A DNA stretch of 64,000 nt from Eledone cirrhosa (Eukaryota). Where the stretch lies: the NCBI GenBank assembly GCA_964016885.1, contig OZ024740.1, positions 384,586,001 through 384,650,000 of the forward strand, in the 5' to 3' direction. Below the pieces are notes generated by a model. The model was not told the DNA's origin, ran no database searches, and saw only the letters and a program-made list of their open reading frames with translations. Position numbers and translations under genes: made by a program. Shown piece by piece: positions 943-55,759 of this stretch (its first letter is position 1; each line of letters starts with the position of its first letter).

Positions 943-1031
943 TATATATTGGTAAACGGAATAGAAAATGCTGACAAATTGTTCACAGTGAACAATTTGT
1001 CACCATTTTCTATTCCGTTTACCAATATATA
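943..1031. repeat. Short near-perfect palindrome (fold-back insertion) between (TA)n tracts
   Basis: tattggtaaacggaatagaaaatg...gttcac-a-gtgaac...cattttctattccgtttaccaata, centre about 987. Confidence 0.9.
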
Positions 1032-1090
1032 TATATATATATATATATAAGAAAGTATTGAAGTTTGCTTGGAGCATTCTGGAATAATAA

Positions 1091-1725
1091 GGTAAATTTC
1101 TTTAAGTCGTTTGGAAGCCTCGACAATGCAGATGGGTAAATCTCCGGGTAACAAGATCCGGTGGTGGAGAGAGAGATATAAGTGGGTGTACGTTGAGATG
1201 CGTGGCGTGTATAAGACTGTAACGTGTAGAGGAATGAAGGAAAGATCGTAAAGGATAAAAATAAAAATAACAACACGAGAAAGAGTCACCTTGGGAGAGA
1301 TTTAATTCACATCCATCAACTGGGGGTTTTCCGGGGGAGGGGGAAGGTTGTCTGTCGGAAAGGTGCGAAACGTGTCCTCCGCTGTTCGTTGATTTGAATA
1401 TCATATTCAAAACAACGAACAGCGGAGGACACGTTTCGCACGTTTCCGACAGACAACCCCTACCCCCCTAAAAAAACCCATTTGATGGATGTGAATCCGA
1501 AATATATAGGGACAATTAAATCTATCCCAAGGTAACTCTTTCACGTGTTGTTATTTTTATCCTTTACGATATTTCCTTCATTCCTCTACACGTTACAGTC
1601 TTATACACGCCACGCATCTCAACGTACACCCACTTACATCTCTCTCTCCACCACCGGATCTTGTTACCCGGAGATTTACTATCTACATTGTCGAGGCTTC
1701 CAAACGACTTCTAAAGAAATTTACC
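1091..1725. mobile_element. ~630-bp diverged fold-back element flanked by (TA)n, probably PLE-derived
   Basis: 1091-1400 is the reverse complement of 1405-1725; the same pseudo-ORF appears on both strands (1019-1276 minus, 1545-1811 plus). Confidence 0.75.
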
Positions 1726-2394
1726 ATATATATATATATAAATGTATATATATATATATATATGTGCGTGTGTGTGTGTTTCTGTGTGTTAAAAACGTTA
1801 TTTTTCTCTGATTTTATTTTCTCCAAGATAAACTTTGTTTTCTATGTGTTGCTTGTAACTGTCTGAAGAGGTCATAGCTGTTGAATTGTTTATAAATTTA
1901 CTCGGGAATTTACAGACCCTCATATTGACCTAGTTGAGTGCTCTACCCTGTATACCGAAGTGTTGCTGTTGAACTAACACATAATCTAATCTAATATATA
2001 TATATATATATATATATATATATATATATATATATATATATATATATATATATATATATATATATATATATATATATAATGAGGTAGAAACGGGTTAAAA
2101 AGAATTATCATGATGTTTATTTCCGTTAGTCGCACGTTTCGCCATCGTTCGGTGAAGATACAATCGGTATCGATCATGCCCGATTCTGAAATCGAGAGTT
2201 CATGGGACTCGTCGTTTCCTTAATCATAAATATATAAATATATATATATGTAGCCAGACAATATTATCGATACTACTGTGTAATTGATCAAAATGATCCT
2301 TATATAATATATATATATATATATATATATATATATATATATATAGATAGATAGATAGATAGATAGATAGATAGATAGATAGATAGATAGATAT

Positions 2395-2893
2395 ATGTGT
2401 AAGTATGTATACGTACATACATATATGAATACAGACGTACAGTAGTGTGTATATATATTTGTACATATGGGTTTACCGAACATTTATTATAATGTTCGGT
2501 TTGTTTGTAAACAAACAGCCCGAATTAAACCGTACAGTGTTCGGCAACCATCGTTGCCCTTTTGTTCAACACTGACAAAGGAACGATGAAATAGTTTCTA
2601 GCTTCTTAGCTGTCATCAGCACCGTATACTTACTCTCAATCGATTGAACGTTTGAAAGTATATACTTTCTTTATGCATATTAACGGCTGAGCAGCCTAAT
2701 TTGCATATCGAGTGAGTTAATCGGCCGGGCGCACCGAAAAGGATAAATGGAAAAAATGAAATTTCATTTCTCACTCTTAGTACCGGTGATACTTAAATAT
2801 AAGTATGTACATGTACATGCATATATGTATATAGACGTACACTAGTATGTATATACATACATGCACACATATATATATATATATGTACGTATA
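2395..2893 (-). mobile_element. Retrozyme-like non-coding element, ~1.2 monomers (400-bp period), diverged copy of the 29.7-30.7 kb family
   Basis: aagtatgta.a.gtacat at 2401 and 2801; colinear with 29712-30255; contains a hammerhead. Confidence 0.8.
2583..2625 (-). ncRNA. Type I minimal hammerhead ribozyme
   Basis: Minus strand: acggtg-CTGATGA-cagctaagaagcta-GAAA-ctat-TT-catcgt; stem I acggtg/catcgt, stem II agct/agct. Confidence 0.7.
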
Positions 2894-53493: not shown

Positions 53494-53675
53494 TGGCTCA
53501 ATGTTGTTATCTACCCTATTTTGTGTGTCTGTGTGTTCGTCTTGGTTATTCTCTTTGTCCTTAGTCTCCCATCTCCTTTTCCTTTTAATCCTATTACTTT
53601 CTCTTATTTCTCTGATTTCTGTGCTACTGTCATTACTTGTTTTCTGTGTCTGTGTGTTTGTTAAGATTGTGGTTT

Positions 53676-54977
53676 GTTAAGATAGTAGAAAGACCTGGTA
53701 CCTCCGTAAAAACACTTATTAGCAAGACATACCCGTTCCAAAGACCCTCATGTATAGATAAGAAATGTATAACCTGTAAAATAAGCCCCCATATTAACTG
53801 TAAAACTAGATTAGAAAACAGCTTAACCCTGATAATGTACTCCCGCTACGTAGATGATATAAACATCGTAGTTAAGACACCCCCACTAAAGAACAGTCAG
53901 GAACTAGAGAAAAACACAATGGAAAGCATCCAGCAAATAGCAAACTCCATCCACCAGAGCATTAGAGTTACTATAGACTACCCAAGTAGACACCCCAACC
54001 ATCGATTACCTGTACTAGACACAGAGCTCTGGTTAGATACAATTAACAACCAAAAACAAATCCTCCATTCCCATTATGCCAAACCCATGACTTCCAAACA
54101 TCTGATCCACCGAAACTCGGCCATTTCGGACCATACCAAAATCAACATACTGATTGCGGATTTGGTACGGGTGATGAGAAACGTGTCCCGCATGTGCAAC
54201 CCCGAAGAACTAGAGAGACACATACAACACTTCATCCACCGTATGCAGTTCTCTGGCTACAATCAGAGAGATAGAATCAGAGTGTATAAAGGAGCCAGAA
54301 CCAAATGGGAAAAAATGGTAAATAATGACATAAATGGGACCTGCCCCTTGTATAGGAGCAAATTTTGGAATAGAATAGAAAGAACTAAGAACAAGGCCAA
54401 TAGAATAAACTCATGGTATGATAGCAATAAATACCAGAGTGTAATGTTCATCAATACAACCCCTAGAGGCGAACTAGCCTACAAATTTAGAAGGGCCCTA
54501 AAGAAACATAATCTCAATATTAAGATAGTAGAAAGACCTGGTACCTCCGTAAAAACACTTATTAGCAAGACATACCCGTTCCAAAGACCCTCATGTATAG
54601 ATAAGAAATGTATAACCTGTAAAATAAGCCGCCATATTAACTGTAAAACTAGAAATGTAGTATATACCATAAGATGTACTGAAGGACAATGTAGAAACAA
54701 AAATATAGTGTACATAGGTGAGACAGCTCGTAGTATAGGGGAACGAATAAATGAACACTGGCGAGACCTCCAAGATAATAAAGAATCATCTGTGCTCTAC
54801 CAACATGCTAAGATAGAACACAGGGGTAAATTAGAGAGCATAGAAATAAAAATAGAATCCACACACAAGAAAGACGCAATGTTTAGGCAAATTACAGAGG
54901 CAGTAAGCATAAAAGAATTAAAACCAAAATTAAATAGAAAATATGAGTGGAACAGCAACATCACAACTTACAATTAA
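53676..54977 (+). pseudogene. Inverted chimeric partial copy of the PLE2 ORF, with intact endonuclease C-terminus
   Basis: KIVERPG..NCKTR block fused in frame to LENSL..RYVDD..; ends EAVSI..KPKLNRKYEW. Confidence 0.9.
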
Positions 54978-55260
54978 GGACAAAATGAAAACACACACAC
55001 ACATAGAACAAACAACTTACAATTGAAAACACACACAAAATGAAAACACACACACACATAGAACAAACAACCAACCAACAATAAATAAATAAATAAACAA
55101 ACAAATAGAAAAATATAAATAGAAAAATAGAAAAATGAACACAAACACACACAGACACCCGGATGTGGCGCATGCGTAAACTGAGCACGCAACCCACACA
55201 CAAACAAAATGGCGTAGGATAGAAGAAAGGAAAGGCACAGAAACGAAGAAAGAAATCCCC

Positions 55261-55305
55261 AGTCACTGAAGAGGTCACAGAGTGTGTGACGAAAGAACTA
55301 TGACT
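55261..55305 (+). ncRNA. Type I minimal hammerhead (right arm of PLE2)
   Basis: agtca-CTGAAGA-g-gtcaca-gagtg-tgtgac-GAAA-gaac-TA-tgact. Confidence 0.78.
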
Positions 55306-55759
55306 ATATATATATAAACAACTATCTGGTTGTGGAACCAACCAACCAACCAGAAATTTATAAATTTGTAAATTTATAAATATATAATTAAATTGAAGTG
55401 AAAGCAACTGGTGCGTGTGTTTCTTATTGGCAACATGACCCTCCCAAAGTATAACAATATATATATATATATATATATATATATATATATATATATATAT
55501 ATATATATATATATATATATATATATATATACATATATATATACACATATATATATATACACACATACACATATGCACACACACACATATACACACACAC
55601 ATACATTAATAACAATAATAATAATAATAATAATAATAACAACAATAATAATAACAACAATAATAATAACGACAACAACAATAATAATATACATATACAT
55701 ATATATATACACATACACGCACACACATAAGCATATCTATACACACACACACACACGAT

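What the first reader, a model, noticed from the sequence alone, without database searches (positions are those of the whole stretch)
943..55460. Fold-back insertion rule: both 3' ends face outward into (TA)n
Seen: inverted structures from 90 bp to 5 kb at 943, 1091, 20734, 25416, 25812, 29712, 38402, 40432, 44395 and 50477. Wherever polarity can be read from an ORF or ribozyme, the left arm is minus and the right arm is plus. The 5'-truncated ends meet in the middle and most outer ends abut (TA)n. Known: PLEs give inverted insertions and favour microsatellites. Inference: the self-complementary (TA)n target is nicked on both strands, each nick primes at an RNA 3' region, and the two cDNAs join. 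This would make PLEs the main source of long palindromes here.
Basis: partly seen in the sequence, partly recalled or inferred. Interest (0 to 1): 0.75.

Follow-up and report, generated by a model that had tools for sequence, protein, structure and literature searches.

The report
Penelope insertions copied from both ends
The ten DNA palindromes are real, and nine look like single back-to-back insertions of Penelope-type jumping genes, a known layout; sister copies show that almost always exactly one arm keeps the element's short tail, likely because both cut DNA strands start copying the same RNA at two fixed sites.

Summary
All ten inverted structures exist (arm identity 88-100%) and are head-to-head ends of Penelope-like retroelements (PLEs); Hydra-clade and Neptune-like ORFs are present. 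The layout, one-sided tail and (TA)n preference are published (PMC3846280, PMC8557442); the mechanism is not settled. In genome sister copies, 41 of 44 pairs are T/N and none N/N. Both arms share rare variants (family-polymorphic differences 0.13/kb against 6.4/kb between loci). Either arm can be the longer, and five insertions pair a tail-only arm with a non-overlapping N arm. This favours two cDNAs primed on one RNA at the two fixed start sites seen in vitro (PMC11167929) over one cDNA folding back. In 800 kb sampled evenly, PLE-type ends explain 35-50 of 95 inverted repeats: the largest identified source, about half. Exceptions: 44395 is probably two events; 25812 merges two things. A self-complementary target helps but is not required. 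No independent read confirmed a window junction. The scan reached the same reading on other DNA before.

The parts
910..986 (-). 943: tailed (T) arm; tail 910-942; abuts (TA)n 892-909
   Evidence: 11 genome hits; no ORF or ribozyme link, polarity from the two-ends signature
988..1031 (+). 943: tail-less (N) arm running into (TA)n 1025-1049
1050..1402 (-). 1091: T arm; tail 1050-1090; abuts (TA)n 1025-1049
   Evidence: RT plus GIY-YIG ORF upstream in sister copies L085, L071
1403..1729 (+). 1091: N arm; abuts (TA)n 1726-1763
20733..22719 (-). 20734 (family A, Hydra clade): N arm, ends at the fixed site 110 nt before the tail end; abuts (TA)n 20697-20734
22720..25260 (+). 20734: T arm with 5'-truncated RT-EN ORF (22718-24136), hammerhead core at 24995, tail 25151-25260; abuts (TA)n 25261-25286; 1-nt overlap at the junction
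25287..25603 (-). 25416: T arm; tail about 25287-25415
   Evidence: GIY-YIG ORF 1.3-1.7 kb upstream in 5 of 30 sister loci
25604..25791 (+). 25416: N arm; abuts (TA)n 25787-25810
25811..25959 (.). 25812: small separate hairpin; N arm about 25811-25864 (-), short T arm plus tail about 25865-25959 (+); right end meets the next element, not (TA)n
   Evidence: other copies end at the same point before (TA)n
25957..26048 (-). 92-bp inverted copy of 26096-26187 at the 5' end of a decayed Hydra-type element; outer end lies inside the RT region (exception to the rule)
26049..28790 (+). decayed Hydra-type PLE (family C): RT fragment 26085-26672, GIY-YIG 27039-27500, long 3' UTR (3' limit approximate)
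29712..30257 (-). 29712: N arm, 1.3 copies of a 420-nt non-coding hammerhead unit; abuts (TA)n
30258..30683 (+). 29712: T arm, exactly one 420-nt unit; tail about 30623-30683; abuts (TA)n 30684
38361..38512 (-). 38402: T arm; tail 38361-38401; abuts (TA)n 38332-38360; 3' end of a Neptune-like family
38513..38623 (+). 38402: N arm, identical to the left arm; abuts (TA)n 38620-38663
40397..40622 (-). 40432: T arm; tail about 40397-40431; flanked by (GA)n, with (TA)n further out
40623..40825 (+). 40432: N arm with hammerhead core at 40672; abuts (TA)n 40821-40857
44257..44541 (-). 44395: young T arm (99% to family), hammerhead core at 44503; abuts (TA)n 44224-44256
44563..45380 (.). third repeat family inserted in the 44395 spacer
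45386..47630 (+). 44395: more diverged N-ended arm (89-96% to family) with an internal tandem duplication; probably a separate event; abuts (TA)n 47624-47650
50424..53676 (-). 50477 (family B, Neptune-like): T arm with 848-aa RT-EN frame (51130-53676), hammerhead core at 50676, tail 50424-50476; abuts (TA)n 50394-50423
53677..53810 (+). 50477: 134-bp extra template piece at the junction (copy of 51310-51443)
53811..55460 (+). 50477: N arm ending 53 nt before the tail end; abuts (TA)n 55457-55531

Best explanation
These are head-to-head insertions of Penelope-like retroelements in (TA)n with one tailed and one tail-less arm, likely made by a PLE version of twin priming on one RNA. Shown: the two fixed 3' ends, the one-tail pairing, the shared variants, either arm being longer, 0-3-nt junction overlaps. 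Inferred steps: (1) the endonuclease nicks both strands of (TA)n; (2) one nick primes at the tail end (T site) and the other at the site just upstream (N site), helped by short TA matches at both sites; (3) the T cDNA either stops at the N primer (tail-only arms) or displaces the N cDNA and recopies the same RNA (PLE RT lacking RNase H is recalled); (4) both cDNAs stop independently, or both run off the RNA 5' end (near-equal arms); (5) their 3' ends are joined through 0-3 nt of pairing, sometimes with templated inserts, by an RT jump or host end joining.
For: One-tail rule. Four families were searched without their tails (120 rows): 47 T/N rows, 3 T/T, 0 N/N, 12 with a short partner, 58 without a partner within 1.5 kb. 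After dropping 4 duplicate rows and 2 non-adjacent partners: 41 T/N of 44, p = 8e-10 against 0.5. Unpartnered arms were 32 T and 26 N, so both ends are common. Incidental copies: 35 T/N, 1 N/N, 0 T/T, 7 short (28 T/N after dropping 4 window rows and 3 cross-family double counts). Family A: 24 of 29 inverted partners of a T arm end at the N site, among 40 loci. Same template: family A, 22 loci, 15,833 sites: arms differ at family-polymorphic sites 0.13/kb against 6.36/kb between loci, and share minor alleles 3.3/kb against 0.38/kb. This also holds in the 6 loci where N is longer (0.46 against 6.06). Family B: 4.1 against 35.2. Either arm longer: family A with both arms of 561 nt or more, T longer 6, N longer 6, within 20 nt 3; families 25416 and 38402, 9, 9 and 5 (plus the two window structures); incidental 7, 8 and 20. 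Non-overlapping, L1-style products: L120 (T arm stops 3 nt past the N site), L161 (4 nt short), L180 (12 nt past), L102 and L265 (inside the tail). Junctions: family A, 23 simple junctions with 0/1/2/3 nt overlap = 3/13/5/2, against P(0) = 0.54 at random (p = 6e-5, or 0.012 counting the 6 junctions with inserts). This is too short to prime a fold-back across kb loops. In vitro, PAc nicks and extends both strands, starts at two sites that bound the tail, and is predicted to be a dimer (PMC11167929).
Against: No intermediate or pre-insertion allele was seen. Asymmetric deletion at the centre of an initially perfect hairpin could also give N-longer and non-overlapping arms with short overlaps. 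Shared variants cannot tell one RNA molecule from two RNAs of one source locus, nor from RT errors copied by fold-back. Three T/T rows and one N/N exist. Five of 29 family A partners end at other sites, including L029, whose long arm ends at an internal (TA)n. 44395 has arms of different divergence. Only 3 of about 20 N-centred pairs stop within 15 nt of the N site, which is not clearly above chance. In family 1091 many N ends lack a TA match at the primer end, and PAc priming in vitro was reported as non-homologous. The window junction at 22719 was not seen in 4 public runs. Junction overlaps were read from BLAST ends.
Confidence: 0.62

Rival explanations
1. True fold-back: one T-primed cDNA snaps back and copies itself; the endonuclease cuts the copy at the N site to resolve it (the 'EN-mediated resolution' idea in PMC8557442), and later centre deletions make the arms unequal.
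For: Explains the same-template result, the one-tail rule, the many near-perfect hairpins (20 of 35 incidental rows) and the TA motif at the N site.
Against: Predicts the T arm at least as long as the N arm; observed 6:6, 9:9 and 7:8. Needs a deletion ending at the N site to explain tail-only arms. Unpartnered N arms are common. Near-equal, N-longer and T-longer classes have similar arm divergence (7.0, 7.1, 8.4 per kb), and 1.3-kb near-perfect hairpins persist (L334, L339). Overlaps of 1 nt do not form a stem.
Confidence: 0.15
2. Two RNAs from the same source locus, one per subunit of a dimer, with the subunits bound to different start sites.
For: Predicted PAc dimer (PMC11167929); fits either arm being longer and the shared variants if one locus supplies both RNAs; 44395 could be a rare two-source case.
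Against: Gives no simple reason for the near absence of T/T and N/N, for T arms stopping at the N site, or for arms matching when many subfamilies were active.
Confidence: 0.13
3. Self-priming on an antisense transcript makes a palindromic intermediate that then integrates (proposed in PMC3846280).
For: Published proposal for the head-to-head bias; predicts same-template arms and junction palindromes.
Against: Does not predict two fixed, different outer ends, tail-only arms, or junctions scattered over kilobases with either arm longer. Not tested directly: no stranded RNA data were available.
Confidence: 0.05
4. Long-read or assembly fold-back artefacts, or TA-targeting MITEs with terminal inverted repeats.
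For: 38402 arms are identical; no independent read covered a window junction; one mariner-like TA-flanked repeat (recalled resemblance) is in the even sample (L327).
Against: Arms differ by 0.4-12% in ten of the eleven arm pairs aligned and end at family-fixed unequal sites next to (TA)n. Families also occur as single arms with variable inner ends. One independent run shows a strand-switch joint in family A.
Confidence: 0.03

Closest known systems
Insertion unit of endonuclease-bearing PLEs: 5'-truncated copy, adjacent inverted copy, one-sided tail (Pen2a_Av, PMC3846280; PMC8557442; passages read)
   Same: Head-to-head arrangement called the most frequent; tail at one end; (TA)n targets for Hydra and Naiad; hammerhead motif in the terminal repeat.
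   Different: There the tail is 'optional' and 30-40 nt. Here it is 33-135 nt and near-strictly one per two-armed insertion, with arms from one template and either arm longer. Published models are antisense self-priming or EN resolution.
PAc (Poseidon of Anolis) in vitro TPRT (PMC11167929; abstract, main text and part of the methods read)
   Same: Both strands nicked and extended; two RT start sites bounding the tail; AT-rich target.
   Different: In the parts read it does not link the two sites to the two arms of one insertion, and it reports priming without homology; here 8 of 9 families have a TA match of 3 nt or more at the N site.
L1 twin priming (10.1101/2024.08.27.596794; passages read)
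   Same: Both nicks prime on one RNA; cDNA ends join by microcomplementarity; internal deletion or duplication at the junction; extra template switches.
   Different: In L1 the second primer lands at a chance internal site and arms barely overlap. Here the second site is fixed just upstream of the first, so most of the sequence is copied twice and long palindromes result in about half of insertions.
Hydra clade (PMC8557442 section 11) and Neptune/Nematis-type PLEs
   Same: Families A and C carry Hydra motifs; family B has the CX2-5CxxC linker and CCHH.
   Different: New local families; no tree was built against reference sequences.
Non-LTR retrozymes (10.64898/2026.07.22.740005; listing and two passages seen)
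   Same: 29712 is a 420-nt non-coding hammerhead tandem unit.
   Different: It carries the PLE two-arm, one-tail footprint.

Membership tests
EN+ Penelope-like elements | PLE-type RT with a C-terminal GIY-YIG endonuclease in one ORF | tested here: met
   Frames at 22718-24136 and 51130-53676 carry YxDD and GIY-YIG-like motifs. Pfam hits are weak and below curated cut-offs (RVT_1 E 5e-4 for family B; GIY-YIG E 5e-4 for family C; none for family A). ORFs upstream in sister copies for 1091, 25416, 38402. Not met directly for 943, 25812, 29712, 40432, 44395 (no ORF found).
EN+ Penelope-like elements | Partial tandem repeats (pLTR) and inverted 5'-truncated copy | tested here: met
   Family A loci L332, L343, L345, L346, L360 show seamless partial tandems; 29 of 40 loci have an inverted copy.
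EN+ Penelope-like elements | Tail extension present at one end only | tested here: met
   41 of 44 pairs T/N; all ten window structures.
EN+ Penelope-like elements | Hammerhead ribozyme in the terminal repeat | tested here: inconclusive
   Core motif conserved at a fixed position in families A (30 of 30), B, 40432, 38402, 44395, 29712 by pattern search. Rfam listed no hammerhead at gathering score or among the 150 best of 348 weak hits. None found for 1091, 25416, 943. Cleavage not tested.
Hydra clade (families A and C) | RWK motif, DKT motif, CxCX5C linker, CxxC and CxH in EN, no CCHH, (TA)n target | tested here: met
   Read by eye in the natural copy L332 (RWK, DKT, linker, CxxC, CxH) against PMC8557442 section 11. 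Family C shows the linker and CxxC only. The 3.5-kb unit is longer than the usual <3 kb.
Neptune clade (family B) | CX2-5CxxC linker and CCHH in EN; phylogenetic placement | tested here: inconclusive
   Linker and CCHH residues seen. These are shared with Nematis; the Neptune label rests on a recalled RT motif and no tree was built.
L1-type twin priming | Both cDNAs from one RNA; junction microcomplementarity; second primer at a random internal site | tested here: inconclusive
   Same template lineage and short overlaps are met; the second site is fixed, not random; one molecule cannot be shown from genome sequence.
MITE / foldback DNA transposon | Two symmetric fixed termini and a conserved centre in all copies | tested here: not met
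   Outer ends are unequal, inner ends vary, and single-arm copies are common.

The most novel reading that the evidence does not exclude
Programmed twin priming is the default PLE integration route: the tail is the spacer between two dedicated start sites on one RNA, each used once by one of the two nicked strands, with the downstream cDNA displacing the upstream one. It works across at least two PLE clades and their non-coding passengers, and has written on the order of 130,000-190,000 palindromes into this 3-Gb genome (extrapolated from 35-50 per 800 kb).
Probability: 0.55. Interest if true: 0.7.

Novelty: new variant of a known kind. Interest (0 to 1): 0.5.

Why it matters
How PLEs make their tandem and inverted insertions is named as an open problem (PMC8557442). 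The counts here turn a loose description ('optional tail') into a near-strict rule with sharp predictions for an existing in vitro system (PMC11167929). It also means one retroelement class supplies about half of the short-spacer inverted repeats here, one per 16-23 kb. That could matter for assembly, genome stability, and double-stranded RNA in transcripts (not tested). The architecture itself is known, so the value lies in the mechanism.

Tried and rejected
Independent reads: four runs were laid on 22300-24250. None bridged the window junction; loose ends there were the family's normal upstream sequence, and one run showed a different strand-switch joint. The runs may be other individuals or species, so this is no evidence against. 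No RNA holder listed. Rfam gave no hammerhead call. A first polarity library was contaminated by inverted arms and neighbouring repeats and was rebuilt; its 9 'mixed' calls are mostly pairs of an abundant SINE-like repeat, and one 'tail-to-tail' call (L263) was re-read as head-to-head by its tail. Solo counts are inflated by cross-hits between related families and were not used. Control: an RTE-like LINE 3' end (label recalled) had an upstream inverted 3' end in 0 of 19 copies, 8 of them next to TA; imperfect, as its own tail is (ATGT)n-like. Excess of T arms stopping at the N site: suggestive only. A test of PLEs outside (TA)n within this genome was not possible. Eleven further loci and window flanks could not be fetched, so some family B far ends stay unseen. 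MITE and artefact readings rejected. Five paper searches found no paper proposing two-site priming on one RNA for PLE inversions; the library lacks most subscription papers, and supplements were not read.
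Full report
Setting. The window lies in a 3.0-Gb, TA-microsatellite-rich animal genome (G000:C1:384586001-384650000). Shared arms are 88-100% identical by substitution.

What the arms are. Two structures hold long PLE frames: 22718-24136 (+) and 51130-53676 (-), with a third decayed element at 26085-27500. Pfam hits are weak, but a full natural copy of family A (L332) shows the RWK, DKT, CxCX5C, CxxC and CxH motifs listed for the Hydra clade. 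Family B has the CX2-5CxxC linker and CCHH; 'Neptune' is my recalled label. Nine searches of the own genome gave 10 to 2,113 candidates per family and 251 loci. PLE ORFs lie upstream, in sense, in sister copies of 1091, 25416 and 38402. A hammerhead core motif sits at a fixed place in families A, B, 29712, 38402, 40432 and 44395. Rfam did not call these ribozymes. Polarity is head-to-head in all scorable cases; for 943 and the 25812 hairpin it rests on the end signature alone.

Each family has two fixed 3' ends: one with a 33-135-nt tail (T) and one without (N). Every window structure has one of each. With the tail counted, both outer ends abut (TA)n in 8 of 10. '25812' is a small hairpin plus a separate 92-bp 5' inversion whose outer end is internal. 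44395 has a left arm 99% like the family, a right arm 93%, and a third element between them, so it is probably two events.

One tail per insertion. Four families were searched without their tails. Of 120 rows, 47 were T/N, 3 T/T, 0 N/N, 12 had a short partner and 58 no partner within 1.5 kb. I dropped 4 duplicate rows and 2 non-adjacent partners, leaving 41 of 44 T/N (p = 8e-10 against 0.5); four of these are window structures. Copies met incidentally in other loci gave 35 T/N, 1 N/N, 0 T/T and 7 short, or 28 T/N after dropping 7 repeated rows. In family A, 29 of 40 loci have an inverted partner and 24 of these end at the N site.

One template lineage. Over 15,833 sites in 22 family A loci, arms differ at 8.2 per kb, but only 0.13 per kb at family-polymorphic sites, against 6.36 between loci. 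They share minor alleles at 3.3 against 0.38 per kb. The six loci with the longer N arm behave the same. Family B agrees (4.1 against 35.2). The private differences show the palindromes have aged in place and are neither read artefacts nor heavily homogenised.

Two cDNAs rather than a fold-back. A T-primed fold-back needs the N arm to lie inside the T arm. In family A, with both arms at least as long as the search query, T is longer in 6, N in 6, and 3 are within 20 nt. In families 25416 and 38402 the counts are 9, 9 and 5 (21 loci mapped plus the two window structures). Incidental copies give 7, 8 and 20. Five insertions pair a tail-only arm with an N arm it does not or barely overlaps, the classic twin-priming product. 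Family A junction overlaps are 0, 1, 2, 3 nt in 3, 13, 5, 2 of 23 simple junctions against 54% zero at random; 6 more have 1-26-nt inserts, the long ones templated. Some junctions recopy RNA already copied (50477; L367). Near-equal arms cluster at inner positions also used by single-arm copies, which fits run-off at an RNA 5' end (inferred). The main loophole is later asymmetric deletion of a perfect hairpin; similar divergence in all three classes and surviving 1.3-kb hairpins argue against it without excluding it.

Role of (TA)n. Eight of nine families have a TA match of 3 nt or more at the N site, and A and B have one at the T site where tandems show the continuation (read by eye). But family 1091 often lacks the match, PAc primes without homology in vitro (PMC11167929), and the same layout occurs with ordinary target duplications (PMC3846280). 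So it helps but is not needed.

How much of the genome's palindromes. In 80 evenly spaced 10-kb stretches, 95 of 253 inverted hits passed the filter (arm 40 bp or more, 85% or more, spacer up to 1.5 kb, non-redundant). Of these, 31 are head-to-head by PLE homology, 4 by hammerhead motif, 15 by the two-ends signature, 4 tail-to-tail (3 PLE neighbours with (TA)n between, 1 LINE), 9 mixed (mostly SINE-like pairs) and 32 unexplained. PLE-type ends make 32 of 49 with spacer up to 30 bp and 16 of 28 with arms of 200 bp or more. Ten-kb pieces under-sample long structures, and a 1.5-kb tail-to-tail LINE pair (L321) fell outside the spacer filter. A LINE control showed 0 of 19 upstream inversions.

Reads. 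Four public runs laid on 22300-24250 did not bridge the window junction; one showed another strand-switch joint in the family.

Literature. PMC3846280 (passages) calls head-to-head the most frequent arrangement, notes the tail on one inverted pLTR and proposes antisense self-priming. PMC8557442 (passages and section 11) describes the inverted copy, one-sided tail and (TA)n bias and leaves the mechanism open. PMC11167929 (parts 1-2 of 4) shows both-strand nicking and two start sites. L1 twin priming is described in 10.1101/2024.08.27.596794 (passages). Five searches found no paper joining these into the model above; supplements were not read and may list these families. Earlier scan notes reach the same reading on other DNA; they are not counted as support.

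Verdict. The mechanism is a likely new variant of twin priming (0.62) and is directly testable. Interest 0.5.

Noticed in passing
window 30258-30683 and 29712-30257: The tailed arm of the non-coding 420-nt hammerhead repeat is exactly one unit long and the other arm crosses the unit junction, as a circular or tandem RNA template would give. About 2,000 candidates in the genome; another copy at 2400-2881.
   Followed up: partly
L360, L372, L371: Both arms (L360) or one arm (L372, L371) run through a whole unit and on into the next, up to 781 nt upstream in L345, past the hammerhead motif; this suggests an uncut tandem or circular template.
   Followed up: partly
window 22719-24250: Runs with other organism labels (X4, X7) hold family A at about 98% identity over 1.2-1.5 kb; close relatives, contamination or transfer were not told apart.
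   Followed up: no
L321:5238-10000 and L314:7775-8156: Non-PLE inverted pairs: a 1.5-kb, 99% tail-to-tail LINE with a PHD finger, and a 100% identical tail-to-tail LINE 3' end around a palindromic TA-rich spacer.
   Followed up: no
L327:3210-4065: TA-flanked 850-bp palindrome whose ends resemble a mariner terminal repeat (recalled).
   Followed up: no
   Followed up: no
window 55765-59076 (-) and 19778-20668 (-): A LINE with AP endonuclease, RT and C2H2 zinc fingers, and a second LINE fragment.
   Followed up: no
window 14896-15014 (-): A 5S rRNA match above the Rfam gathering score.
   Followed up: no
window 783 (+), 2619 (-), 36138 (-), 63571 (+): Further hammerhead-core motifs outside the ten structures, probably more PLE ends.
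   Followed up: no
window 25261-25286, 1025-1049, 25787-25810: Single (TA)n tracts are shared by neighbouring insertions, so units stack end to end; L332 and L350 show family A starting inside the 3' end of other PLE families.
   Followed up: partly
window 45607-47265: A 722-bp GC-rich tandem duplication inside the long 3' region of the 44395 family.
   Followed up: partly
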